A stretch of DNA of 64,000 bases from Patescibacteria group bacterium (GCA_038064675.1 JBBTSM010000001.1:40446-104445); one strand, 5' to 3'; positions 832 through 24,374 are shown, counted from the first letter of the stretch. Program-made: numbers and translations. The notes: generated by a model from the sequence alone, not told the origin.

Positions 832-847
832 TCCTGGTTCCAAGATT

Positions 848-890
848 CCCCTCCGTCATTGCGAGGAGGGTAATCCCGACGCGGCAATCT
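848..890 (+). repeat. Short intergenic repeat module (TCCGTCATTGCGAGGAGGGTAATCCCGACGCGGCAATC) beginning 17 nt after a stop codon
   Basis: Near-identical to 2087-2128. Shares the GGGTAATCCCGA(C/T)CGC core with 12609-12630 and 19155-19176. Confidence 0.7.
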
Positions 891-996
891 AGGTTTCTTC
901 AGTCATCCTGAGCGAAGCGAAGGATCTGAGCGTCGATAACCTACGAGAGATGCTTCACTCCGTTCAGCATGACGAAACGGTCTTATCTTCTCCACT

Positions 997-2198: not shown

Positions 2199-3116
2199 AT
2201 GTTCACAATGCTCTTCACGATCATCGGTCTCGCAGCCTTCGAAGTGGTTTCCAGTATCGACAACGCCGTCATTAACGCCGAGGTGTTGCAGACCATGAGT
2301 CCCAAAGCGCGACGGTGGTTTCTTATTTGGGGAATGCTCTTCGCCGTTGTTGCGGTTCGTGGCTTGCTCCCGTGGCTGATTGTGTGGGGCGTTATGCCGG
2401 ATCTTGGTCCGATCGGTGCTTTAATGTCGACGATGAGCAGCGATCCGTTGGTGCATCTTGCGGTGGAGAAGGCAGCGCCAGTGTTGTTTGCCGGGGGAGG
2501 CACGTTCTTGTTGTTCCTGTTCTTCCATTGGTTGTTCCTTGAAGAAAAGCACTTCGGCCTTCCGCACGAAAAGTTTTTCGCACGCCAAGGCCTGTGGTTC
2601 TACGCCGTCGTCTCTATTCTCTTGGCATTCATCGTGTGGACGTCACTCTCCATTGAGCCATTCATGGCATTCGGTGCCGTGATTGGATCAACCGCATTCT
2701 TTATTACCCACGGATTCAAAGACAACGCCGAGCGTGCAGAAAAAGAACTCCTCTCCGGCAACACCAAACGCAGCGACATCAGCAAGATTTTATATCTTGA
2801 AGCCATCGACACGACTTTTTCAATCGACGGCGTTCTGGGCGCCTTCGCCTTCACCCTCTCCGTCCCCCTCATCCTCATCGGCAACGGCATCGGCGCCCTG
2901 GTTGTGCGCCAACTCACCGTAAGCAACATCGAAACGATCAAAAAATACATCTACCTCAAAAACGGCGCGATGTACTCATTACTTATCCTGGGCATCATGA
3001 TGATGTGCGAAGCCTTCGGCATCCACCTCCCACAATGGGGAGCTCCATTGGCGACGGTACTGATCCTGGCGGCTGCGGTGGTGAAGAGTAGAAGGAAGAT
3101 GTTGGAAGCTGGGTAA
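2199..3116 (+). CDS. TerC/Alx-family integral membrane protein
   Basis: Multiple TM helices. SIDNAVINAEVL and FSIDGVLGAFAF motifs typical of the TerC family. Confidence 0.6.
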   Translation: MFTMLFTIIGLAAFEVVSSIDNAVINAEVLQTMSPKARRWFLIWGMLFAVVAVRGLLPWLIVWGVMPDLGPIGALMSTMSSDPLVHLAVEKAAPVLFAGGGTFLLFLFFHWLFLEEKHFGLPHEKFFARQGLWFYAVVSILLAFIVWTSLSIEPFMAFGAVIGSTAFFITHGFKDNAERAEKELLSGNTKRSDISKILYLEAIDTTFSIDGVLGAFAFTLSVPLILIGNGIGALVVRQLTVSNIETIKKYIYLKNGAMYSLLILGIMMMCEAFGIHLPQWGAPLATVLILAAAVVKSRRKMLEAG

Positions 3117-3225
3117 AGTTGGTTTTGACGTTTTAACTTATTGGGGATAGTTTTTTCAATTTTCGGCTGATATAGTAAGATCACTGCGCTATTAAAGTGT
3201 TAATTGGGCGTAAGCTTTGGCTCCC

Positions 3226-3984
3226 ATGACTTCTGATTCTATTGAGCTTCTCGGAAAACTTATTCTCGCTTTTCTTGCGTTATTTGGAGGAAAGGAGCTT
3301 TTTAATAAAATAATCTTTCAAAGGATCGAAAAGGGTGAGCGTATTGGTCGAGATAAGGTAGTTAACAATTACTACAATGTCTCGAGAGTCGGAGATCCTG
3401 ATCTGCTGCTAAGCGAATCGTCCGTCCCTTCGCGTGAACCGGTGTCTGGGGATGATGGTGACCTGGTCCCAGGTGCACTGAAAATTTTAGCAGATGCAGA
3501 CGGCTCTATCATTTTAGTATCGAGCGATATTGAAAAAGTGATCGACTTTTTTGAAAGGGTTTTTAAAGAGAACGGAAATTGGAGAAACGGTCACTGTTTG
3601 ATTATGGGCGCACTCTTTGCGCTAATTTCCCAGAGACATCGAAACCTTGAGTGGCAAGAACATTGCGCCAGCTCTCTCCGTGAACTTTTTCATCAGTGGA
3701 AGGGAAGTGAAGGTTTGATTGTTTCTGCTTTTACCAAAATAAGGCCAAAGGGGGCGAATAACTTTCCAACAGCAAAGAATGGTAGGGATCTGTATGCTAG
3801 GATGCGTTGGTACTATGAATTTTTCTCTTCGATATGTCATCATCACCATCCGGACGCTCTAGTGGCATTGAAATCCATTCGAGACGATAGGGAGATAAAA
3901 GATATATCCGACGATTTGTTTAACAAGACAGTGGCAATGTTTTTTTATGAGATGGTAGGATTCATTAGACTTACAGGAGTATGA
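3226..3984 (+). CDS. Hypothetical protein with an N-terminal hydrophobic helix; first gene of the AT-rich island
   Basis: ATG at 3226 (the track start at 3217 is TTG). No recognisable motifs. Its stop overlaps the next gene's start (ATGA at 3981-3984). GC is much lower than the flanks. Confidence 0.5.
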   Translation: MTSDSIELLGKLILAFLALFGGKELFNKIIFQRIEKGERIGRDKVVNNYYNVSRVGDPDLLLSESSVPSREPVSGDDGDLVPGALKILADADGSIILVSSDIEKVIDFFERVFKENGNWRNGHCLIMGALFALISQRHRNLEWQEHCASSLRELFHQWKGSEGLIVSAFTKIRPKGANNFPTAKNGRDLYARMRWYYEFFSSICHHHHPDALVALKSIRDDREIKDISDDLFNKTVAMFFYEMVGFIRLTGV

Positions 3985-6920
3985 AACAATTAGAATTACA
4001 TAACGCGATTGACGGGTTTTTCAGAAGCGATATCAAGCTAGCTAATCTTCAATTTGCGCAAAGTTTATTGCAGAATGAAGACTCGCGGCGTTATTTTTTC
4101 GACCAAGCCAATGAAGTATGGCTTCAATGGCTTTGGGATTTCGGATTTCTTGACGCGATTAAGGGAGGGGCGAATACCGCACCTAGAGGTGTATATCGGC
4201 TTCCCGAACTCGGCTACCTCGAGAAAATTTGTAAGATAAATCCGGTCGGAGTTTCAAAGATCATTGAATCGGTAGAGATTTCCGAAGACAATTGTAGTCC
4301 GGAAGTATTATTGAGTTTTTTAAGGATTATCGGGACTTTTCCGGTTGAACAAATTGTACCGCTCATCGATAAGATTCTATCGGAACGATGGGTTTATTTA
4401 ATGCGAGATTCAGATAGGTCGAGTTACGATTTTGAAGTGATTGTAAAAGTATTAGTGGAAAAGAAAGAGAGCGTTGGTTTGTTAAAGTTATCTCAAGCCC
4501 TTTTGACTTTAAAGGATGAGGACGATATACGAGCAAAAAACGGAGATTTTGGAAGAGACGATTTTTTCTGCGTCAAAGATATTGATGAGTCGGGTATTTT
4601 TAGTGCGCTTATTACTATTGATGAGCATTATTTAACTGCTGCACTTAAAGTTACTACGGATACCATGGCGGCTATCATTAAGATGTCAGAAGCAGATGAA
4701 GGGGGAGTCTTTGAGTATAAGGATGCATTTGGCTTATATGACGTTGATTTTTTTAATCTAGATTTTGAGGGTGGCCATACGGGCTCATATCGCGCGAATG
4801 AAAAAAACTTTGTTACAACTATAAAGGTTCTTGCCGAGAGTGAGATGAACAAGAAATCTACAGGCGACGAAGATAAGAGGTCTGTTCTTGATCTTATAGA
4901 TAATATTCCTTCGAGTCGTCTGGTGTGGAGATTGCGATTATTTGTGCTAGCGCAGCAACCTCTTTTGTTTAAGAGTGAACTTAAAGATTCGTTCTTTAGG
5001 TTGTTTGAAGGTAAAAATGATTACGATATAGAGGGTGGCGCAGAATACAAGCAAGCTTTAAAAATTTGTTTCCCCCTTTTAGACGAAGATGATCAACGGC
5101 TTTATGTTGCGAATGTCATAAATTATTTTGTAAAAAAAGCGAAAGATAATCCAGAACAGAAATGGCACAAACAAACCGGATATGAAATTCTTTCGACCGT
5201 TTTTGTTGATTTAAATGGAGCGGAGAAACAAAAGGCTGCAGAGGTTTTTGGAAAGGAATTAGATGCGGAATATGTTCCGGAGCCGTCAATCGGTCGAATG
5301 AGGTCCGGTACCGTCATATATCAAGCACCAGATGAATTAGAGAAATATACAATTAAAGAAATCATATCGAGATTAAAAACAAATTGGACGCCAGAAAGAT
5401 TATCTGAAGAGTTCAAGAGTGAAGATTATTTCCGGCCTAGAGGAGCCGAGGGGCTTTGCGAGTCTATAAAACAGGATGTAAAGAAGCGTACTGCTGACTA
5501 TCTCAATAATATTGAACTCTTCTTTGATCGTGAGAATATTCATCCTTCGTATATTCACTCATTGCTGCGCGGTATTGAAGAGATGCTCCGTAACGATCAG
5601 AGTCTTAGCTTTGAGCAAATCGAAAATGTATTTGGATTGTTCGGGCTGATAAAGATAAGTGGGGAGAGGGCGCCTTTTAAGGGTAGTGACGATAAGTCCT
5701 GGCTCGCAGATTGGATTGGGGTTCACAGTGTTGCTGTGGATGTTCTTCTTCACATTCTCAGAGATAAGACATACAGGGGGGAAAAGCATGAGGGTTCCCG
5801 TCCTTGGGTTCTTTCATTCCTTTCTTATCTCTTCACCGTTAATGGCAGCCCCTCAAGGGATGACGAAGGCCCTGAATCTAGTGAGCCGTATTCCGTCGCA
5901 ATCAATTCCGTACGAGGCAGGGCGTATGAGGCATTTGTTGTGTTGGTAGAGAACGACGGAAAGACACTAAGGGAAGATGTGAAGCCTGTATATCGAGCGA
6001 TACTTTGTGACGAATCCCTTGCGGTGAGGTTCGTCATTGGTCGCTATCTAGCCTCGTTTTATTTTCGTGACATTGATTTCGTTCGGGGTCTTTTTGCTGA
6101 AATCTTTCCTAAAGATGACTCAGAGAAAAAGGATATTTATCTCGCAAGTTGGGAGGGCTATCTTTCCAACGTTCTATACCAGAAGCTATTTATTGATCTC
6201 GGAAGCTTCTATGATCATGCGATAGCGCTGAGTCCCTCTGAATATACGAAGAGAAAATACTCAACCGGATTGGATGAGGCTCTAGGCGTGCATCTTGCGC
6301 TTGCATTTATCTACTTCGGGTTGGATATTGAAAATGATCCTTTGCTTGTTAAATTTTGGAGCATCGAGAATCCAAAAAGGCATCAGGAGTTTATATCGTT
6401 TATCGGTCGTACATGTTTGACTCAAGATGGTGCCGGGGACAGGTGGTTTAAAGAGAATAAGGTCGATAAAGAAAGACTGATAGCGTTTTGGAGCTGGGCG
6501 GTGGGGCATGTTACTGAGCCTGAAGCCTTGTCTGGTTTCGGTTTCTGGGTGAATCAGGATCACGAGATTCTGGATGACAGTTTTGTTGCAGAGAAGATGG
6601 CGGAGACACTCAAGAAATCAAATGGTGAAATAGATTGGGACTACGGTCTCTTGAGACGATTGCCGGCGCTTGCTGCAAAAAATAGTGATTCGACATTGGA
6701 GATCATTGAACATCTTCTGTTGGGTAACGATGGTAGGCTTAACCCAAATCGGCGTGTTCCATTCTTTAGTCTCGATGGAGAAATAAGAGAATCTCTTGGT
6801 GTAATTTATGACGGCAGTGATGCTGCAATGAAAGTAAGGGTTTCCGATCTGATTAGCAGACTTATTACAGAAGGTAGCAGCATGTTCTGGGGGTTGAAGG
6901 AGGTGATAAAGGAGGCTTAA
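3981..6920 (+). CDS. Large hypothetical protein (979 aa), predicted mostly alpha-helical, no recognisable catalytic motifs
   Basis: Long uninterrupted ORF with an AGGAG RBS at 3975-3979. Translationally coupled to the upstream gene. AT-rich codon usage unlike the surrounding genes. Confidence 0.6.
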   Translation: MKQLELHNAIDGFFRSDIKLANLQFAQSLLQNEDSRRYFFDQANEVWLQWLWDFGFLDAIKGGANTAPRGVYRLPELGYLEKICKINPVGVSKIIESVEISEDNCSPEVLLSFLRIIGTFPVEQIVPLIDKILSERWVYLMRDSDRSSYDFEVIVKVLVEKKESVGLLKLSQALLTLKDEDDIRAKNGDFGRDDFFCVKDIDESGIFSALITIDEHYLTAALKVTTDTMAAIIKMSEADEGGVFEYKDAFGLYDVDFFNLDFEGGHTGSYRANEKNFVTTIKVLAESEMNKKSTGDEDKRSVLDLIDNIPSSRLVWRLRLFVLAQQPLLFKSELKDSFFRLFEGKNDYDIEGGAEYKQALKICFPLLDEDDQRLYVANVINYFVKKAKDNPEQKWHKQTGYEILSTVFVDLNGAEKQKAAEVFGKELDAEYVPEPSIGRMRSGTVIYQAPDELEKYTIKEIISRLKTNWTPERLSEEFKSEDYFRPRGAEGLCESIKQDVKKRTADYLNNIELFFDRENIHPSYIHSLLRGIEEMLRNDQSLSFEQIENVFGLFGLIKISGERAPFKGSDDKSWLADWIGVHSVAVDVLLHILRDKTYRGEKHEGSRPWVLSFLSYLFTVNGSPSRDDEGPESSEPYSVAINSVRGRAYEAFVVLVENDGKTLREDVKPVYRAILCDESLAVRFVIGRYLASFYFRDIDFVRGLFAEIFPKDDSEKKDIYLASWEGYLSNVLYQKLFIDLGSFYDHAIALSPSEYTKRKYSTGLDEALGVHLALAFIYFGLDIENDPLLVKFWSIENPKRHQEFISFIGRTCLTQDGAGDRWFKENKVDKERLIAFWSWAVGHVTEPEALSGFGFWVNQDHEILDDSFVAEKMAETLKKSNGEIDWDYGLLRRLPALAAKNSDSTLEIIEHLLLGNDGRLNPNRRVPFFSLDGEIRESLGVIYDGSDAAMKVRVSDLISRLITEGSSMFWGLKEVIKEA

Positions 6921-7022
6921 TCGGAGGTTAAACCGGTCGCCCCTGCAGAGATGTAGAGCGATCAGTACCTATCCACCTTCCTCCTTGTCACCATACTGAA
7001 TGGGCTACATTATGAGGTATCT

Positions 7023-7379
7023 ATGGAAAGGAATATTGATTTAACGGGGGTCGCTAAGGATATCGTGGCGTTTCGGGATGAGAGAGATTGGAAGCAATTT
7101 CATAATTTGAAGGATTTGGCGATTTCGTTGGTGTTAGAAGCGGGGGAGGTACTTGAGCATTTTCAGTGGAAGAATGCGGAGGAAATGGCTGCACATGTGC
7201 AGTCGCATAAGGAGGATGTGGCGGATGAGCTTTCTGATACGCTGTATTGGATTTTGCTCATGGCAAATGATCTGAATATCGATCTTGTTGCTGCGTTGGA
7301 GAAGAAGATGGAAAAGAATCGCGCGAAGTATCCGGCGGATAAGGCGAAGGGGAACCATAAGAAATACACAGAACTTTAA
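7023..7379 (+). CDS. MazG-like nucleoside triphosphate pyrophosphohydrolase (small all-alpha NTP-PPase, COG1694-like)
   Basis: EAGEVLEHFQWK...ELSDTLYWILLMANDLNIDL matches the metal-binding EExxE/D helix pair of MazG-type NTP-PPases. Confidence 0.75.
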   Translation: MERNIDLTGVAKDIVAFRDERDWKQFHNLKDLAISLVLEAGEVLEHFQWKNAEEMAAHVQSHKEDVADELSDTLYWILLMANDLNIDLVAALEKKMEKNRAKYPADKAKGNHKKYTEL

Positions 7380-7381
7380 AT

Positions 7382-8938
7382 ATGTTAGACATTAAGACTT
7401 TTCCATTTTCAGAAAGCGGCATCCAGCAAATGCGAAAGTCGCCAAATGCAATCGATTGGCCGATTGTGTATTTGATTGAAAACGGGAAGGATTTATATGT
7501 TGGCGAGACAATTCACGCGAGCGCGCGAACAAAGCAGCATCTTGAAAACCCAGAACGTAAAACATTGAAAACGATTCATGTCATTTCTGATGATGAATTT
7601 AATAAATCAGCAACTCTAGATGCAGAATCTTCGCTCATAGAATACTTTGCGGCTGATGGAAAGTATTCTCTTCAGAATGGGAATGGTGGATTACAAAATC
7701 ACGACTATTTTGATCGTGAAAAATACCAAGCAAAGTTTGAGGTTCTTTGGGAGAAGTTGCGAGAAATGCATATTGCGCAACATAGTCTTTTTCATATCCG
7801 TAATACTGATCTTTTTAAATATTCTCCGTACAAAACGCTTACAGATGATCAATACTTCTTGGCAACGTATCTTCTCGCCGATCTGACTGCGGATGTTGAG
7901 CGGAGATATCTTATTCATGGTGGTCCTGGAACGGGGAAAACGATTCTTGCAATCTATATTGTTAAGCAGCTCGTCGAACAAGGAAAAAAGAATGTTGCAC
8001 TGGTCATTGCGATGACTTCGTTGCGGAATACGCTAAAGAAAGTTTTTCGAGCAGTTCCTGGCCTCCGGTCAGACATGGTCATTGGACCAAATGATGTAAC
8101 AAAGCGTCACTACGATACGTTGATTGTTGATGAAGCTCACAGGCTTCGTCGAAGGAGAAATATCCCAAATTATGCATCGTTTGATCAGACCAATAAGCGA
8201 TTTGGATTAGGTACTGAAGGAACAGAATTGGATTGGATTTCTCGTTCCGCAAAACAAGTCATTTTGTTTTTTGATGAAAATCAATCGGTTCGACCGTCAG
8301 ATATTCCTGTTGAAGTTATAAAGAGCTCAGCAGAGACGCATTTCCGTTTAAGCGCACAAATTCGAGTGCAGGGCGGAGAGGAGTACATACATTTTGTTGA
8401 TAATATTCTTGAGGTAAAGCCGGCGGAATATGTGCAGGTCGCAAAATATGATTTTCAAATTTTTGAAGATATTTCTGAGATGATTCGCGAGTTGAAAGAA
8501 AAGGAAAAGATTCACGGTCTTTGTCGATTGGTCGCTGGATATGCTTGGGAGTGGGTTTCTCGGGACGATGCTAAGACGCCGGATATCATAATTGGCAATA
8601 CGAAGCTTTTTTGGAATAGCACAATTCAGGACTGGGTAAACTCTCCAAATGCCATAAATGAAGTTGGATGCATCCACACAATTCAGGGATATGATTTAAA
8701 TTATGCGGGAGTGATCGTTGGACCAGAAGTAACGTTTGACGCATCACGTAATTGTATAGTGATTAAGAAAGAAGAATATCGTGATGCCAACGGGTATCGT
8801 GGAATCGTAGATCAAGAAGAATTAAAGCGATACATCATTAATATTTACAAAACATTATTGACTCGGGGGATTCTGGGAACGTATGTCTATATCGTTGACC
8901 CCGATCTTCGAAGGTACTTTCAATCCACCCTTCGATAA
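7382..8938 (+). CDS. GIY-YIG nuclease domain fused to a DUF2075-type (Schlafen-like) P-loop ATPase/helicase
   Basis: N-terminal VYLIENGKDLYVGET...R..H (GIY-YIG-like). Walker A GGPGTGKT and Walker B LIVDEAHRL. DUF2075-like C-terminal region. Starts 2 nt after the MazG-like stop. Confidence 0.7.
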   Translation: MLDIKTFPFSESGIQQMRKSPNAIDWPIVYLIENGKDLYVGETIHASARTKQHLENPERKTLKTIHVISDDEFNKSATLDAESSLIEYFAADGKYSLQNGNGGLQNHDYFDREKYQAKFEVLWEKLREMHIAQHSLFHIRNTDLFKYSPYKTLTDDQYFLATYLLADLTADVERRYLIHGGPGTGKTILAIYIVKQLVEQGKKNVALVIAMTSLRNTLKKVFRAVPGLRSDMVIGPNDVTKRHYDTLIVDEAHRLRRRRNIPNYASFDQTNKRFGLGTEGTELDWISRSAKQVILFFDENQSVRPSDIPVEVIKSSAETHFRLSAQIRVQGGEEYIHFVDNILEVKPAEYVQVAKYDFQIFEDISEMIRELKEKEKIHGLCRLVAGYAWEWVSRDDAKTPDIIIGNTKLFWNSTIQDWVNSPNAINEVGCIHTIQGYDLNYAGVIVGPEVTFDASRNCIVIKKEEYRDANGYRGIVDQEELKRYIINIYKTLLTRGILGTYVYIVDPDLRRYFQSTLR

Positions 8939-8953
8939 AACTATTTTTTTGAA

Positions 8954-9410
8954 TATGCCCATTGAAACCCCAAAATTGAATCCTGCAGAAGTGAAGGTTC
9001 CTGCTGTTGAGACAGAACCGGGTTCTCGGGTGATAACAATTGCCGTGCACGCAAGGGAGCAGAAAAAGCGAGAGGCGCTTGTGGAGGAAGGTGTTGTGAT
9101 TGTTGAGGAACCGGGAGCGTTGAGCCAGGAATTGGAGGATGCTCGGAGGGATCGTGAGGCGGCGGAAGCGAGGGAGCTTGCTCGGCGGGAAAAGTTTTTT
9201 GCGGATCTTGTTGCAAAGTTTCCGGAGCTGACGGATGTGCAGCGCAATGCGGTGCGTGCAACAATGGAACGGGAGAGCTCGCGAACGTGGTCTAATTATG
9301 ATGGCACGGATACCACGATTAAGCGTATTTCAATCGAGGGTGACGTGTTAACTATCGTGTTTGATATTGAGGAAATGGGTATGCGCATCGACGAAAAAGT
9401 TTGCTTCTAG
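8954..9410 (+). CDS. Hypothetical protein with a charged, coiled-coil-like middle region
   Basis: ORF with ATG at 8954. Its stop TAG is directly followed by the ATG of the next gene. Confidence 0.45.
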
Positions 9411-9965
9411 ATGCTTCACGCCGAGCATATCCCGTACGTTCTTCGTCGCAAGCGCTTTTCGCGGGTGCTGCGGTTTGCGGTACATGCGGATGGACGGTTG
9501 GTGGTTACAGCACCAGTTCTCATCGGGAAGCGCACCATCGAAAAGATGATTGCGGAGAAGAGGGAATGGATTTTGGAGAAACTCGAGATTGCAAGAAAGA
9601 ACGCGAAGCCGGTGGCGCCGAAGAGGACGAAGAAGGAGATCGCCGATGATAAAGATCGCGCATTGGCGTTGATTCGAGATCGGATCGAGCATTTCAACCT
9701 TGTGTATCGATTATCGTGGAAACGGATTGCAATACGGAATCAGAAGACGAGATGGGGGAGTTGTTCGCGGAAGGGGAATTTGAATTTCAATTATAAGATT
9801 GCATTGTTGCCGCCGCATCTTGCGGACTACATCATCGTTCACGAACTCTGCCACTTGGCGCAGATGAATCATTCGAAAAAGTTTTGGGAACTGGTTGCGC
9901 AGACCATTCCAGATTGGCGAGGTCGGCGAAATGAGATTCGGGAGCACGAGATTCGATTGCGATGA
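9411..9965 (+). CDS. DUF45/YgjP-family (SprT/WLM-like) zinc metallohydrolase
   Basis: HExxH motif IIVHELCHLAQMNHS near the C-terminus. The family is typically about 180 aa. Confidence 0.7.
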   Translation: MLHAEHIPYVLRRKRFSRVLRFAVHADGRLVVTAPVLIGKRTIEKMIAEKREWILEKLEIARKNAKPVAPKRTKKEIADDKDRALALIRDRIEHFNLVYRLSWKRIAIRNQKTRWGSCSRKGNLNFNYKIALLPPHLADYIIVHELCHLAQMNHSKKFWELVAQTIPDWRGRRNEIREHEIRLR

Positions 9966-10228
9966 GTATGCCAACATGGTTCGTATACATGGTGCGCTGT
10001 GGCGATGGGAGTCTCTATACGGGGATCGCTATTGATGTTGTAAAGCGAATCGCGTTGCACAACGCGGGGAAAGGGGCGAAGTACACCAGAGCAAGATTGC
10101 CCGTGGTGCTTGTGTGGAGTGCGGCAATGAAGAGCGCGACCGATGCGCGAAAGGCGGAGGTGGATGTGAAGCGATTGTCGAAGAAAGAAAAAGAACAATT
10201 AATAGGTTTGCACGTGCGCCGTGGCTAA
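9962..10228 (+). CDS. Small GIY-YIG nuclease family protein (YhbQ/COG2827-like)
   Basis: FVYMVRCGDGSLYTGIAIDVVKRIALHNAGKGAKYTR is a canonical GIY-YIG core. Overlaps the upstream gene at ATGA. Confidence 0.75.
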   Translation: MSMPTWFVYMVRCGDGSLYTGIAIDVVKRIALHNAGKGAKYTRARLPVVLVWSAAMKSATDARKAEVDVKRLSKKEKEQLIGLHVRRG

Positions 10229-12401
10229 GGTTCCCGTCCCCGATAATTTCGGATACACTTCCTTCGCTATGAAAGACTTTGTTCTCTCCAACCAGCACGC
10301 CTCGCCGAATCTTCATATTGACTATCAGGCGGAGTTGAATGAGGAGCAGTATCGCGTGGTTTCTGGCGGTGGTGGGCCGATGCTGGTACTTGCGGGTGCG
10401 GGGAGTGGAAAAACGAGAACCATTACCTATCGTGTGGCGTGGTTGCTCGAACACGGTACGCCAGTGGAGAACATGTTGTTGCTCACGTTTACGAACAAAG
10501 CGGCAAAAGAAATGATGGCGCGCGTGGAAGGATTGCTTCGCGCATATCCAACAGGATTGTGGTCTGGAACCTTTCACTCCATCGCAAACCGCATGTTGCG
10601 CATGTACGGCGCGTACACTGGCTTCGGGAGCGATTTTTCCATTTTGGACGAGGAAGATGCGAACGATTTGATGAAGATGTGTATCAAGGAGCTGAAGATC
10701 GACACGAAGGGGCGACGATTCCCGAGTGTTGGAGTGTTGCGCGGACTCTTGTCGTACGCCAACAACGCTCGTCGATCGCTTCAGTCGGTGCTGAACGACC
10801 GCGCAGAACATTTCGCGGGAATTCTTCACGAGGTGACGGCGGTTGCAGAGCGATACGCATCCGCAAAACGCACAGCGAAGGCGATGGACTTTGATGATCT
10901 CTTGCTCGAGCTCCTCAAGCTTCTTCGTGAAAACGAATCCGTTCGCACGCAATTGGCCAATCGTTTTCAATTCGTGCTCGTGGATGAGTTCCAGGACACG
11001 AACATTATTCAGTCCGACATCGTCGATCTTCTTTCGTCCGGCCATCGGAATCTTCTCGTTGTTGGCGACGACGCACAGAGTATTTACTCCTTCCGCGCCG
11101 CAGAAATTAGGAACATTCTTGATTTTCAGAAACGGTATCCGGATGCGCAATCGTATCGATTGGTGATGAATTATCGCTCCACGCCGGAGATTCTTGCGGT
11201 TGCGAACGCTGTCATCTCGAATAACAGCGAGCAGTTCGCGAAAGAACTGGTGTCGGCCAAGTCTTCTGGAGAAAAGCCAAACATTGTTCCGGCGAACGAT
11301 GCACGAGAAGAAGCGCAGTATGTTGTTGAACAGATTTTGAAGCTGATCGATGAGGGAATCGAGCTCCAGGGAATCGCGGTGCTGTTCCGTGCAGCGTTTC
11401 ACTCGCAAGCTCTGGAATTCGAGCTGATGAAGCGGGGGATTGCGTACGAATATCGTGGCGGAATGAAGTTTTTTGAACGCGCCCACATCAAGGATGCCGT
11501 TGCGCATCTTCGGCTGCTTCGAAACGGTCACGACCTTGTTGCATGGGCCAGAGCGCTGCAGATTCAACCTGGTCTTGGCATTACCACAAGCCAGAAGATT
11601 GCGGAAACGATGAGTCAGTACGACTCTGCCCGCGATGCCATTGAGGCGCCGATGAAACTTTCTCCTCGGGTACAGTCTGGATTTGCCGGAACACGATCGA
11701 TTCTCCGCATGATGTTTGCTGCACCGCTGCCGTCGGAGGCTGTGCGCGCATTTGCAAATCACGAATCGTACCGGCTGTATCTTGAAGCCGAATATCCGAA
11801 TGCGCGTGAACGGGTTGAAGACTTGGATCAGCTCGCGGTGTTTGCGGAGCAGTATCGCGATCTTGGTGCATTCTTAGACGCGATGACGTTGGCTGGCGAT
11901 TTCGCGGGAAGGATCGATGATGCGGAATCGGGAGCCCGTGAAGAGTCCGATCGAAACAAACTTATCTTGTCGACGATTCACCAGGCGAAGGGACTGGAGT
12001 GGGATGCGGTGTTCGTACTGCACTGTGCGCAAGGAACGTTCCCGAGTGATCGAAGCATGGGGCAGTCGCGGGAAATCGAAGAAGAGCGACGACTGTTCTA
12101 CGTTGCGGCGACGCGAGCGCGGTCGAAGCTATATTTCACGTATCCAATGACGACCGGGTATGAATCGGTTGAGCTTCGTCAGCAGTCCATGTTTCTTGAT
12201 GAGATTCCGTTCGGCATGGCGGAAACCGTGCGTTTACGTCGCGCAATGCCAGCTTGGAGCATGTCGTCGTCGTACAGTACGCCAACCTCGTCTCGCCATC
12301 GTGCGCACGACGAGTTTGAAGAGCCCACAATCGTTCTCGACGACATGGGGGAGAAAATGGTAAAAAAGAGTGCACCTGGTTCGTTTCTCGGCGATCATTA
12401 A
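10221..12401 (+). CDS. UvrD/PcrA-family SF1 DNA helicase (GTG start at 10221; alternative ATG at 10269)
   Basis: LNEEQYRVV...GPMLVLAGAGSGKT (Walker A), DEFQDT (Walker B) and typical UvrD motifs through VAATRAR. Confidence 0.9.
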   Translation: MAKVPVPDNFGYTSFAMKDFVLSNQHASPNLHIDYQAELNEEQYRVVSGGGGPMLVLAGAGSGKTRTITYRVAWLLEHGTPVENMLLLTFTNKAAKEMMARVEGLLRAYPTGLWSGTFHSIANRMLRMYGAYTGFGSDFSILDEEDANDLMKMCIKELKIDTKGRRFPSVGVLRGLLSYANNARRSLQSVLNDRAEHFAGILHEVTAVAERYASAKRTAKAMDFDDLLLELLKLLRENESVRTQLANRFQFVLVDEFQDTNIIQSDIVDLLSSGHRNLLVVGDDAQSIYSFRAAEIRNILDFQKRYPDAQSYRLVMNYRSTPEILAVANAVISNNSEQFAKELVSAKSSGEKPNIVPANDAREEAQYVVEQILKLIDEGIELQGIAVLFRAAFHSQALEFELMKRGIAYEYRGGMKFFERAHIKDAVAHLRLLRNGHDLVAWARALQIQPGLGITTSQKIAETMSQYDSARDAIEAPMKLSPRVQSGFAGTRSILRMMFAAPLPSEAVRAFANHESYRLYLEAEYPNARERVEDLDQLAVFAEQYRDLGAFLDAMTLAGDFAGRIDDAESGAREESDRNKLILSTIHQAKGLEWDAVFVLHCAQGTFPSDRSMGQSREIEEERRLFYVAATRARSKLYFTYPMTTGYESVELRQQSMFLDEIPFGMAETVRLRRAMPAWSMSSSYSTPTSSRHRAHDEFEEPTIVLDDMGEKMVKKSAPGSFLGDH

Positions 12402-12402
12402 T

Positions 12403-12659
12403 TTTTCCGTCATCCCCGCGTAGGCGGGGATCCAGTATCATTGCAAGCTGGTGGCTCGGATATACATTCTTTTGCACTCCGCGCGAATCCCCGACGCTGC
12501 AACGTCTCGTTTGCACTCGACTGCAGCTGAGGGGCGCGTGCTCGTTGGAAGAATGTATCCTCTCCACTGGCGCTCGCGATGTCAGTCTCACTCGCCCAAT
12601 TTGCTCAAGGGTAATCCCGATCGCCCAAGCGCAGCGATCGCTCATCTTTCCTCTCCACT
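12403..12659 (+). repeat. Modular intergenic repeat of about 257 bp, copy A: TTCCGTCAT + palindrome ATCCCCGCGTAGGCGGGGAT + conserved body + GGGTAATCCCGATCGCCC tail. It fills the whole uvrD / malic-enzyme spacer
   Basis: High identity along its full length to 18932-19202 and partly to 24052-24195. Confidence 0.85.
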
Positions 12660-18931: not shown

Positions 18932-19202
18932 TTCCGTCATCACTTTTCCTTAGTCATCCCCGCGCAGGCGGGGATCCAGAATTCATCGCGAGCTGGTGGC
19001 TCGGGTACATGTTTCTTCACTGTGCGTGAACGCCATCACGCCGTAACGTCTCGCTTGCGCTCGACTACTGCTGGATGGGTGCACTGCTCGTCGCGAAACA
19101 CGCACCCTCGCCACTGGCGATCGCGATATTCATCTCACTCGCTCAATTCGCTCAAGGGTAATCCCGATCGCCCGCGCGTAGCGCTCGCTCATCCATCTTT
19201 CT
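18932..19202 (+). repeat. Modular intergenic repeat of about 270 bp, copy B (TTCCGTCAT ... GTCATCCCCGCGCAGGCGGGGATCCAG ... GGGTAATCCCGATCGCCC); fills the GH5 / trmH spacer
   Basis: Aligns with 12403-12659 along its length. Begins 6 nt after a stop and ends at the next start codon. Confidence 0.85.
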
Positions 19203-23994: not shown

Positions 23995-24051
23995 AAATTC
24001 CTCAGAATCAAAGCGAGCTCGAAAGGGCTCGTTTTGATTTGGTAACCTTTA

Positions 24052-24195
24052 CATCGCGAGCTGGTGGCTCGGATACATTCTTCTGCACTCCGCGCGAATC
24101 CCCTACGCTGCGACGTCTCGCTGATGCTCGACTGCAGCTGTGGGGCGGCGTGCTCGTTGGAAGAATGTATCCTCACCACTGGCGTTCGCGATGAC
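24052..24195 (+). repeat. Modular intergenic repeat, partial copy C (central body only); downstream of secF
   Basis: CATCGCGAGCTGGTGGCTCGGATACATTCTT...GTGCTCGTTGGAAGAATGTATCCTC.CCACTGGCG.TCGCGATG is collinear with 12436-12590. Confidence 0.8.
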
Positions 24196-24374
24196 TCGGT
24201 TCGACTTGGAGCGGCGTGCTATAATTCAACGGACAGGACTTCCTTATTTGAGGCTAGTTTCGATGAACGAGGAGCAAAGATCGCGAGGCGTACTTCACGG
24301 TACGTTGAGCGATTTTGCGACGAAGTGAGTCGAAAATAGACCAAATGAGGAAGTGCTAAAGGACTTTATCGCCT

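What the first reader, a model, noticed from the sequence alone, without database searches (positions are those of the whole stretch)
3117..8940. AT-rich four-gene island (two large unknown proteins + MazG-like NTP pyrophosphohydrolase + GIY-YIG/DUF2075 nuclease-ATPase): candidate novel defence or mobile-derived module
The GC content drops sharply between the TerC gene, which ends at 3116, and the gene starting at 8954. Inside that interval are four co-directional genes. Two of them are translationally coupled and have no detectable motifs (252 aa with a hydrophobic N-terminal helix, and 979 aa, mostly helical). The third is a MazG-type all-alpha NTP pyrophosphohydrolase, a family used by defence systems and phages to manipulate (d)NTP pools. 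The fourth is a fusion of a GIY-YIG endonuclease domain to a DUF2075/Schlafen-like Walker A/B ATPase. The compositional discontinuity and the gene content are consistent with a horizontally acquired island. The pairing of a nucleotide-pool enzyme with a nuclease-helicase and two uncharacterised large proteins does not match any named system I recognise, such as BREX, DISARM, Hachiman, Gabija, Septu or Zorya.
Basis: partly seen in the sequence, partly recalled or inferred. Interest (0 to 1): 0.8.

Follow-up and report, generated by a model that had tools for sequence, protein, structure and literature searches.

The report
Two separate candidate phage-defence gene pairs
The AT-rich island is real, but it is two unrelated two-gene modules side by side rather than one four-gene system: a split relative of a known phage-capsid sensor protein with a small partner found nowhere else, and a widespread, apparently undescribed pairing of a dCTP-pyrophosphatase-like enzyme with a nuclease-helicase of a known anti-phage type.

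Summary

The "four-gene cassette" reading does not hold. Of 79 loci with a relative of the 979-aa protein (g2), one has MazG+DUF2075 nearby. Of 80 loci with a relative of the DUF2075 protein (g4), none has g1 or g2.

Module A (g1+g2):
- g2 is a HEAT/ARM-like solenoid.
- Its C-terminal half matches the non-SIR2 region of Dsr1. A 2026 paper identifies that region as a phage capsid-protein sensor shared with Avs7.
- The g1 domain has an invariant Arg and His. It occurs only directly upstream of g2 or fused to its N-terminus (60 of 79 loci; 100 hits among 1.84 billion representative proteins).
- In other loci a CHAT protease or a transmembrane-helix protein sits in the g1 position.
- 37 of 79 loci have restriction-modification genes within 6 kb.

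Module B (g3+g4):
- g3 is a DCTPP1-like MazG. g4 is a GIY-YIG + DUF2075 protein with the "Nhi-like" architecture.
- MazG lies directly upstream of g4 relatives in 45 of 66 metagenomic loci, in Bacillus megaplasmids and on an archaeal plasmid.
- I found no paper describing this pairing.

Both modules are best read as new variants of known kinds of defence system. No function has been tested experimentally.

The parts
3117..8940 (.). Low-GC island between the TerC/DUF475 gene and the next host-like gene
   Evidence: GC is 0.416 here against 0.516 for the rest of the window. The gene-level z-scores are -2.4 to -4.2. There is no tRNA, integrase or flanking repeat.
3217..3984 (+). g1: small partner protein (252 aa from the ATG at 3226, or 255 aa from the TTG at 3217). 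It has an N-terminal hydrophobic helix (about residues 8-26), a linker, and then a helical domain found only in this family (about residues 100-252) with invariant R155 and H208.
   Evidence: It has no Pfam, NCBIfam, PADLOC or PHROGs match. Family alignment A3 shows invariant R155 and H208 and nearly invariant A132, W146, S153 and E156. The domain lies directly upstream of g2 or fused to it in 60 of 79 loci. It gives 100 hits among 1.84 billion representatives, all standalone or N-terminal to g2-like proteins apart from two repeat artefacts. Hydrophobic helix.
3981..6920 (+). g2: 979-aa HEAT/ARM-like alpha-solenoid. Its C-terminal half (about residues 451-979, nt 5331-6917) is homologous to the non-SIR2 sensor region of Dsr1.
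6921..7022 (+). Intergenic spacer between the two gene pairs
   Evidence: It is 102 nt long. It contains one weak promoter-like match at 6985-7013, which is no more than chance would give.
7023..7379 (+). g3: 118-aa MazG-like NTP pyrophosphohydrolase of the DCTPP1/RS21-C6 type
   Evidence: It matches PF12643 at 7e-18. Its closest solved relatives are dCTP pyrophosphatase 1 / RS21-C6 at E 8e-19, aligned over residues 15-118, and the ExxE...ExxD metal-binding motifs are retained. It also matches the phage pyrophosphatase family phrog_3301 at 6.5e-15.
7382..8938 (+). g4: 518-aa protein with an N-terminal GIY-YIG nuclease domain (about residues 25-105, nt 7454-7696) and a DUF2075/Schlafen-group-3 SF1-type ATPase-helicase (residues 176-506, nt 7907-8899). 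Walker A is GPGTGKT and Walker B is DEAH.
   Evidence: It matches PF09848 at 1e-67. It matches PADLOC Nhi at 6e-17 and AbiO at 5e-16 over the ATPase core, and PDC-S14 over the N-terminus. The GIY-YIG domain is confirmed at family level. The invariant GPGTGK and DEAHR motifs are in alignment A7.

Best explanation
The interval is a small, horizontally acquired defence islet in a groundwater Patescibacteria genome. It holds two independent two-gene modules that happen to be neighbours.

Module A (g1+g2) is a naturally split version of a single protein found fused in other genomes.
- g2 is a large HEAT/ARM-like solenoid. Its C-terminal half is homologous to the sensor region of Dsr1. Published work shows that this region, which Dsr1 shares with Avs7, binds phage major capsid protein.
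- g1 sits where Dsr1 carries its SIR2 NADase. It is a small helical domain with an invariant Arg and His. In this clade it is tethered by an N-terminal hydrophobic helix.
- Inferred mechanism: the solenoid captures a phage structural protein made during infection, most likely the capsid protein. The resulting conformational change activates the bound g1 subunit. That subunit then damages the cell or the phage, and replication is aborted. Its chemistry is unknown; a nuclease or RNase-like Arg/His site, or membrane action, are the candidates.

Module B (g3+g4) is a conserved operon.
- g3 is a DCTPP1-like MazG pyrophosphatase.
- g4 is a GIY-YIG nuclease fused to a DUF2075 SF1-type helicase, which is the Nhi-like architecture.
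- Inferred mechanism: g4 unwinds and cuts phage DNA or replication intermediates, as Nhi does. g3 hydrolyses dCTP or 5-modified dCTP. That would either starve phages that use modified cytosine or clear modified nucleotides released by the degradation.

Shown here: the homologies, the domain content, the fusion/fission relationship, the conserved gene pairings and the genomic contexts.
Inferred: every functional step.
For: Independence of the two modules:
- g3+g4 lie near g2 in 1 of 79 loci.
- g1 and g2 are found in 0 of 80 g4 loci.

Module A:
- The N-terminal extension of the ~1150-1200-aa g2 homologs aligns with g1 residues ~103-209 (E 2e-6 and 7e-5).
- The g1 profile finds 46 separate upstream genes and 14 fusions among 79 loci.
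- g1 and g2 overlap by 4 nt.
- An exhaustive search finds the g1 domain only standalone or fused to g2-like proteins.
- Three divergent family members match the Dsr1 model.
- Dsr1's sensor is shared with Avs7 and detects phage major capsid protein; the same sensor occurs in non-STAND proteins with varied N-termini, including split ones (PMC13581612).
- The g2 model is a confident solenoid with no enzyme fold.
- The g1 position holds other proteins in some loci: a CHAT protease in L022, L047 and L007, and transmembrane-helix proteins in 7 loci. This fits a constant sensor with swappable effectors.
- 37 of 79 loci have RM-type genes within 6 kb. About 19 are co-directional arrays with an HmaA helicase plus Eco57I-type methylase, or with type III Mod and Res.
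- The family is patchily spread over CPR, Chloroflexota, Nitrospirota, Gammaproteobacteria and Omnitrophota, and the island is low in GC.

Module B:
- MazG lies directly upstream of g4 relatives on the same strand in 45 of 66 evaluable metagenome loci: 15 of 18 with the GIY-YIG N-terminus and 30 of 48 with the other N-terminus.
- 63 of 80 g4 loci contain a MazG-like ORF somewhere within the locus.
- The same adjacency is seen in about 25 Bacillus cereus-group megaplasmids, on a Halalkalicoccus plasmid and in CPR locus L007.
- g3 is closest to DCTPP1/RS21-C6.
- The GIY-YIG domain is confirmed.
- Nuclease + DUF2075 proteins (Nhi, Nhi-like) have been shown experimentally to be anti-phage.
Against: - No experiment bears on either module.
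- g1 has no recognisable catalytic fold. Its only database signal is a ~35-residue, motif-level similarity to PF18165, and its model confidence is moderate (pLDDT 50-80). It could be a regulatory or adaptor domain rather than an effector.
- The link to capsid sensing has two steps: g2 to the PADLOC Dsr1 model, then Dsr1 to Avs7 through the literature. Only the C-terminal half of g2 matches. P0003, a close family member, did not hit the Dsr1 model. The structure searches did not single out a defence sensor: the best was Avs4 at TM 0.33, and the rest were generic HEAT proteins.
- In Caldilineaceae the gene sits in conserved synteny with housekeeping genes, so there it may be inherited vertically.
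- In about half of the loci no RM-type or recombinase gene was detected within 6 kb.
- For module B, MazG is missing next to some g4 relatives. Nhi-like was reported to defend as a single gene, so g3's role may be accessory or unrelated.
Confidence: 0.6

Rival explanations
1. The four genes form one integrated four-component defence system. The MazG enzyme, the nuclease-helicase and the two large proteins would act together.
For: All four genes are co-directional, share the low GC, and lie within 5.8 kb. Both modules are also adjacent in a second CPR genome, L007.
Against: The modules co-occur in 1 of 79 g2 loci and 0 of 80 g4 loci. In L007 the order is reversed, the g2 partner is a CHAT-domain protein rather than g1, and g4 has a different nuclease domain. 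That points to independent juxtaposition. Each pair is tightly coupled internally, while 102 nt separate the pairs.
Confidence: 0.06
2. g1-g2 is not an autonomous system. It is an accessory scaffold or specificity subunit of restriction-modification-like systems (Hma-type helicase-methylase, or type III Mod-Res). The window copy is an orphan left without its partners.
For: About 19 of 79 loci place g1/g2 as the last gene of a co-directional array: HmaA then Eco57I-type methylase in 7, methylase alone in 4, and Mod then Res in 6-8. A variable nuclease gene often follows g2 in those arrays. HEAT solenoids are typical protein-protein scaffolds.
Against: About half of the loci, including the window, have no such neighbour within 6 kb. 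The associated RM systems belong to unrelated types. Hma systems are known to host unrelated embedded defence genes. A downstream nuclease occurs in only about 10 of 48 loci. Homology to the Dsr1 sensor and the swappable partners, CHAT among them, fit a self-contained sensor-effector better.
Confidence: 0.15
3. The genes are not immune genes. g1-g2 would be a structural or regulatory HEAT-repeat complex, perhaps membrane-associated. g3-g4 would be a nucleotide-pool sanitising enzyme paired with a DNA repair or replication helicase-nuclease, carried on plasmids and islands for maintenance.
For: No family member has a measured phenotype. The Caldilineaceae copies lie in conserved housekeeping synteny. 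DCTPP1 is a housekeeping sanitising enzyme in eukaryotes. The g3-g4 pair is common on Bacillus megaplasmids.
Against: The phyletic distribution is patchy and the composition atypical. RM and recombinase genes are frequent neighbours. g2 is homologous to a validated phage sensor. g4 shares its architecture with validated Nhi and Nhi-like proteins. HNH, zeta-toxin and restriction genes surround the Bacillus copies.
Confidence: 0.13
4. The island is a remnant of a phage or other mobile element. The genes would serve the element, for example in superinfection exclusion, anti-restriction or manipulation of the nucleotide pool, rather than the host.
For: The GC is low. g3 matches a phage pyrophosphatase PHROG. 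Three viral contigs carry g2 relatives. Serine recombinases lie near g2 in 15 loci.
Against: The island has no integrase, att-like repeats, tRNA or phage structural genes, and its flanks are housekeeping genes. g1 and g2 match no PHROG. Only 3 of 2.9 million viral contigs carry a g2 relative.
Confidence: 0.06

Closest known systems
Dsr1 (defence-associated sirtuin 1) and the Avs7/Dsr1-type capsid-protein sensor superfamily (Li et al., Nature 2026, PMC13581612)
   Same: The C-terminal ~520 residues of g2 and of its relatives match the non-SIR2 part of the PADLOC Dsr1 model, positions 738-1195 of 1227, at E 4e-13 to 3e-19. Both are large alpha-solenoids with an N-terminal position that holds a variable module. 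The paper reports non-STAND and split proteins carrying this sensor with HEPN-like, MBL, TM and unknown N-termini.
   Different: g1 and g2 contain no SIR2 domain and no STAND NTPase. The N-terminal half of g2 (about residues 1-450) has no detectable match. The partner domain g1 occurs only in this family. The protein is split into two translationally coupled genes here. Whether it binds capsid protein is untested.
Nhi (S. epidermidis SERP2475; Bari et al.) and Nhi-like (Millman et al. 2022)
   Same: g4 has the defining architecture of an N-terminal nuclease followed by a DUF2075 (PF09848) SF1-type helicase/ATPase. It matches the PADLOC Nhi and AbiO models over the ATPase core.
   Different: The nuclease is GIY-YIG, not PD-(D/E)xK. 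Similarity to the Nhi model covers only residues 140-375. g4 is encoded in a conserved operon with a MazG-like gene, and none of the papers I could search mentions that pairing.
DCTPP1 / RS21-C6 all-alpha MazG-type dCTP pyrophosphatases
   Same: g3 aligns over nearly its whole length with DCTPP1 at E 8e-19 and keeps the metal-binding acidic motifs.
   Different: g3 is a minimal 118-aa prokaryotic protein, translationally coupled to a nuclease-helicase. Its substrate is unknown.
Hma systems and their embedded defence genes (Payne et al. 2021, 2024)
   Same: In 7 loci, g1/g2 directly follows a full-length HmaA helicase (1644 bits) and an Eco57I-type methylase. Hma loci are known to host unrelated defence genes.
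   Different: The window has no Hma genes. No HmaC ATPase lies downstream of g2 in the loci I examined. None of HEC-01 to HEC-09 and none of the PADLOC candidate models matches g1 or g2.

Membership tests
Dsr1 (defence-associated sirtuin 1) | N-terminal SIR2 NADase domain | tested here: not met
   Neither g1 nor g2 has any Pfam or NCBIfam hit. The PADLOC Dsr1 match starts at model position 739.
Dsr1 (defence-associated sirtuin 1) | C-terminal sensor region homologous to that of Dsr1 | tested here: met
   g2 matches at E 3.8e-13, P0030 at 5.4e-17 and P0046 at 3e-19, over Dsr1 model positions 738-1195 of 1227. Dsr1 is the only one of 5027 PADLOC models that was hit.
Avs7 / STAND pattern-recognition receptors | Central STAND NTPase (NACHT/NB-ARC-type P-loop) | tested here: not met
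   g1 and g2 match no P-loop or STAND family, and the g2 model is solenoid throughout.
Avs7 / Dsr1-type sensor superfamily | Bilobed sensor that binds phage major capsid protein | not testable with these tools
   The link is indirect: g2 to Dsr1 by HMM, then Dsr1 to Avs7 by the literature. The structure searches gave only generic HEAT/ARM hits. The paper's catalogue (its Supplementary Table 8) is not held.
Nhi / Nhi-like | DUF2075 (PF09848) SF1-type helicase/ATPase with Walker A and B motifs | tested here: met
   PF09848 matches at E 1e-67. GPGTGK and DEAHR are invariant in alignment A7.
Nhi / Nhi-like | N-terminal nuclease domain (PD-(D/E)xK in Nhi itself) | tested here: inconclusive
   A nuclease domain is present, but it is GIY-YIG. 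Relatives such as the L007 and Halalkalicoccus proteins instead have an N-terminus with an E-x-K motif that looks PD-(D/E)xK-like. So the loose "Nhi-like" definition is met and the strict Nhi definition is not.
Nhi / Nhi-like | Anti-phage activity | not testable with these tools
   This needs phage challenge in a host.
GIY-YIG nuclease superfamily | GIY...YIG motifs followed by the conserved Arg, His, Glu and Asn | tested here: met
   Y30, Y39-x-G41, R49, H53 and E82 are invariant and N99 is nearly invariant across 19 relatives. 18 of 19 hit PF01541. The PDB profile hits are I-TevI, UvrC and T4 endonuclease II only.
MazG / DCTPP1-type all-alpha NTP pyrophosphohydrolase | MazG-like fold with ExxE...ExxD metal-binding motifs | tested here: met
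   PF12643 matches at 7e-18. The alignment to DCTPP1 (E 8e-19) conserves LEAGEVLE and DELSD.
Hma system | HmaA helicase, HmaB methylase and HmaC ATPase genes in the locus | tested here: not met
   None of the four window proteins matches an Hma model beyond a weak P-loop hit. HmaA is present only in some relatives' loci.

The most novel reading that the evidence does not exclude
The g1 domain is a previously unrecognised effector that works only with this Dsr1/Avs7-like solenoid. It is membrane-anchored in the window's clade, and the system gives CPR bacteria a capsid-triggered abortive response with new chemistry. Separately, the MazG + nuclease-DUF2075 operon is a true two-component system. 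In it a DCTPP1-like enzyme destroys dCTP or modified dCTP together with the nuclease-helicase, which would be a combination of nucleotide-pool attack and DNA attack not yet described.
Probability: 0.25. Interest if true: 0.7.

Novelty: new variant of a known kind. Interest (0 to 1): 0.5.

Why it matters
- **Module A** would add a new effector type, and a naturally split form, to the recently defined family of capsid-sensing receptors. The partner swapping seen here (g1 domain, CHAT protease, transmembrane-helix proteins) gives natural comparison cases for studying how one sensor drives different outputs.
- **Host lineage:** most members are in Patescibacteria/CPR, small-genome episymbionts whose antiviral repertoire is poorly known.
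- **Module B** shows that many Nhi-like nuclease-helicases, including those on Bacillus cereus-group megaplasmids, come with a DCTPP1-like pyrophosphatase that published tests of single genes would have left out. If that partner matters, it links depletion or sanitation of the nucleotide pool to nuclease-based immunity. The Bacillus copies are in culturable organisms, which makes this directly testable.

Tried and rejected
1. **A second genomic context for the island.** Contigs L086 and L087 seemed to have different upstream genes. They are 100% identical in DNA to the window, and only the gene calling differed.
2. **"Cluster 17" and the L007 upstream ORF as divergent g1 copies.** hhalign gives a probability below 1%. 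They are alternative partners, so my interim label was wrong.
3. **g1/g2 "embedded" in Hma between the methylase and HmaC.** No HmaC lies downstream.
4. **A nuclease gene as an obligate third component downstream of g2.** Only about 10 of 48 downstream ORFs are nuclease-type.
5. **g1 as a pP_pnuc_1 nuclease.** 12 of 32 members hit PF18165, but only over profile positions ~9-45 of 133, all below threshold. This is motif-level similarity only.
6. **g1 as a canonical HEPN domain (Rx4-6H).** The His four residues after R155 in the window copy (an Rx3H spacing) is not conserved, and the invariant His lies ~53 residues further on.
7. **g1 "AHH" as an HNH/EndoVII nuclease.** In the model the His sits at the end of a long helix before the hairpin, which is not a beta-beta-alpha-metal layout. 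Confidence there is low.
8. **Insertion signatures.** No flanking direct repeats, tRNA or integrase were found.
9. **Sequence search of the PDB with the g2 profile.** It gave no hits.
10. **Tool limits.** The afdb50 fold library was unavailable. The supplementary tables of the Avs7/Dsr1 paper are not held.
11. **Literature on a MazG + DUF2075, Nhi or Schlafen pairing.** Nothing was found. Subscription-only papers are not covered.
Full report
**1. Observation**

The interval contains four co-directional ORFs:
- g1: 3217..3984, 255 aa from a TTG start. Public gene calls start at the ATG at 3226, giving 252 aa.
- g2: 3981..6920, 979 aa.
- g3: 7023..7379, 118 aa.
- g4: 7382..8938, 518 aa.

g1 and g2 overlap by 4 nt (ATGA), with a GGAG just upstream. 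g3 and g4 are 2 nt apart. 102 nt separate the two pairs.

GC is 0.416 inside 3117-8940 and 0.516 elsewhere. g1, g2 and g4 are the three lowest-GC genes of the 59 in the window, with z = -3.5 to -4.2. No tRNA, integrase or flanking repeat marks the ends.

Identical copies occur only in Hainich groundwater assemblies (well H41, 0.1-0.2 µm filter fractions) and in one MAG, always in the same TerC-YgjP context. NCBI labels the identical g1 as coming from a Patescibacteria group bacterium.

**2. Are the four genes one cassette? No.**

I fetched 80 loci carrying g2 relatives from species-representative genomes; 128 relatives exist in that collection. I then searched their ORFs with g1, g3 and g4.
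- MazG+DUF2075 appear near g2 in only one locus, L007.
- In L007 the order is reversed, the gene coupled to g2 is a CHAT-domain protein rather than g1, and the DUF2075 protein has a different nuclease domain.
- In the reverse direction, none of 80 metagenomic loci with g4 relatives contains a g1- or g2-like ORF.

The island is therefore two modules side by side.

**3. Module A (g1+g2)**

*g2 family and fold*
- g2 has about 50 cluster-level homologs, none of them annotated.
- They fall into two length classes, about 980 aa and about 1150-1200 aa.
- The AF2 model of g2 is confident (pLDDT 87.9) and entirely helical.
- No enzyme fold or catalytic motif is evident.

*g1 and g2 are a split protein*
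- The extra N-terminal ~180 residues of the long g2 forms align with g1 residues ~103-209.
- A g1 profile finds the domain directly upstream of g2 in 46 loci and fused to it in 14, out of 79.
- So g1+g2 is a split form of a protein that is fused in other genomes.

*The g1 domain*
- It has invariant R155 and H208, and nearly invariant W146, S153 and E156.
- It has no significant database match.
- An exhaustive HMMER search of 1.84 billion representatives found only 100 proteins. Apart from two repeat artefacts, all are standalone or N-terminal to g2-like proteins.
- In the fusion model the domain is a helical bundle of moderate confidence.
- About half of the N-extended forms carry an N-terminal hydrophobic helix. 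The window's copy is borderline.

*Link to a known sensor*
- g2 matches the PADLOC Dsr1 model at E 3.8e-13.
- Two divergent relatives match at 5e-17 and 3e-19.
- Together these matches cover Dsr1 positions 738-1195 of 1227, which is the non-SIR2 part.
- Li et al. (Nature 2026, PMC13581612) show that this part of Dsr1 is a sensor shared with Avs7. It binds HK97-fold major capsid protein.
- They also report the same sensor in non-STAND proteins with HEPN-like, MBL, TM or unknown N-termini, split proteins included.

*Variable partner*
- In loci that lack g1, the coupled upstream gene differs.
- It is a CHAT-domain protein in L022 (4.7e-8), L047 and L007.
- It is a protein with a transmembrane helix in seven loci, and an unknown protein in others.
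- A constant solenoid with a swappable N-terminal or upstream module is what a sensor-effector design looks like.

*Genomic context*
- 37 of 79 loci have RM-type genes within 6 kb.
- About 19 are co-directional arrays behind an HmaA helicase plus Eco57I-type methylase, or behind type III Mod-Res.
- Large serine recombinases occur in 15 loci.
- Hma loci are known to harbour unrelated defence genes.
- A nuclease gene follows g2 in about 10 of 48 loci, so it is not obligatory.
- Only 3 of 2.9 million viral contigs carry a g2 relative.

*Inferred mechanism*
- g2 captures a phage structural protein, most likely the capsid protein.
- That activates the bound g1 subunit, whose chemistry is unknown.
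- Every functional step here is inference.

**4. Module B (g3+g4)**

*g3*
- g3 is MazG-like (PF12643, 7e-18).
- Its closest solved relatives are DCTPP1/RS21-C6 dCTP pyrophosphatases (E 8e-19), and the metal-binding motifs are retained.
- DCTPP1 is described as hydrolysing abnormal or 5-modified dCTP (abstracts).

*g4*
- g4 has a DUF2075/Schlafen-group-3 helicase core (1e-67).
- Its N-terminal domain is confirmed as GIY-YIG at family level. Y30, Y39-x-G41, R49, H53 and E82 are invariant and N99 is nearly invariant. 18 of 19 relatives hit PF01541. The PDB profile hits are I-TevI, UvrC and T4 endonuclease II.
- Nuclease + DUF2075 is the architecture of Nhi and of Nhi-like, both shown to defend against phages.
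- GIY-YIG-DUF2075 fusions were noted in 2019.

*The pairing appears to be new*
- A MazG-like gene lies directly upstream on the same strand in 45 of 66 evaluable metagenomic g4 loci: 15 of 18 of the GIY-YIG type and 30 of 48 with the other nuclease type.
- 63 of 80 loci have a MazG-like ORF somewhere within the locus.
- The pair is also adjacent in about 25 Bacillus cereus-group megaplasmids, often among HNH, zeta-toxin and restriction genes.
- It is adjacent on a Halalkalicoccus plasmid as well.
- I found no paper linking MazG with DUF2075, Nhi or Schlafen-type defence.

*Inferred mechanism*
- g4 attacks phage DNA.
- g3 depletes or sanitises dCTP or modified dCTP.

**5. Comparison and novelty**

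- Module A is not Dsr1, because it has no SIR2 domain. It is not an Avs, because it has no STAND NTPase.
- It does share the Dsr1 sensor region. It is best read as a new variant within the Avs7/Dsr1-sensor superfamily, split here into two genes and carrying a partner domain found nowhere else.
- I could not check whether it is already in that paper's catalogue.
- Module B is an Nhi-like system of the GIY-YIG type with a conserved, apparently undescribed MazG partner.
- Overall rating: new variant of a known kind, of moderate interest. There are two clear, testable leads, and the Bacillus homologs of module B are experimentally tractable.

**6. Caveats**

- All functional statements are inferences from homology, architecture and context.
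- The capsid-sensing link has two steps and covers only half of g2.
- g1 might be regulatory rather than an effector.
- The Caldilineaceae copies look vertically inherited.
- The empty-site test for the insertion could not be run.

Noticed in passing
window 12403-12646, 18944-19193 and about 24050-24200: An intergenic repeat family with three copies (79-89% identical) lies after the UvrD gene and after two other genes. The copies fold into a long imperfect hairpin of about 150 nt, and 9 predicted pairs keep pairing through changes on both sides. No Rfam family matches. It may be a MITE/REP-like element or a structured RNA.
   Followed up: partly
window 845-893 and 2087-2185: A short palindromic element of about 50 nt recurs in two intergenic regions, upstream of the YceG gene and upstream of the TerC gene, in both orientations (blastn self-matches). 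It may be a terminator-like repeat.
   Followed up: no
window 8883-9410: The 175-aa ORF downstream of the island has no family match. As called publicly, it overlaps the 3' end of g4 by 56 nt. An in-frame ATG at 8954 would remove the overlap. Its GC (0.49) lies between the island's and the host's, so the right edge of the island is not sharply defined.
   Followed up: no
window 9962-10228 (88 aa), directly upstream of the UvrD-like gene at 10221-12401: A small standalone GIY-YIG protein (PF01541 in the public annotation of the identical contig) overlaps the start of a UvrD-type helicase gene, and a YgjP-like metallopeptidase gene lies just before it. A second 75-aa GIY-YIG gene lies further upstream on the parent contig. 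Both have host-like GC.
   Followed up: no
L022:8959-9996, L047:8873-9997, L007:8950-9999: In three Patescibacteria loci, a CHAT-domain (caspase-like protease) protein of about 345-375 aa takes the place of g1. In L022 and L007 it overlaps the start of the g2 homolog; in L047 it ends a few nucleotides before it. This solenoid + CHAT pairing is loosely reminiscent of TPR-CHAT proteins.
   Followed up: partly
L063, L069, L071, L075 (Caldilineaceae), the ORFs directly upstream of g2: In these loci the g1-like domain is the C-terminal part of a longer 363-374-aa protein, with an extra N-terminal region of about 200 residues and unknown nature. The surrounding genes are syntenic housekeeping genes.
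   Followed up: no
L002, L010, L014, L043, L050, L053, L080: These loci share a recurrent co-directional array: a full-length HmaA-type SNF2+NOV_C helicase, an Eco57I/type IIG-like methylase, (g1)g2, and then a variable gene. That last gene is a nuclease in five loci (Cas4-like PD-(D/E)xK, SNase, Mrr or REase-like), a UvrD/GajB-like helicase in L010, and an unmatched ORF in L053. No HmaC ATPase is present. This could be a distinct multi-gene RM-like system type.
   Followed up: partly
L077:7351-9177: An FRG-domain + TPR-repeat protein (608 aa) lies upstream of the g1/g2 pair in one Caldilineaceae genome. My neighbour clustering wrongly merged it with the g1 cluster.
   Followed up: no
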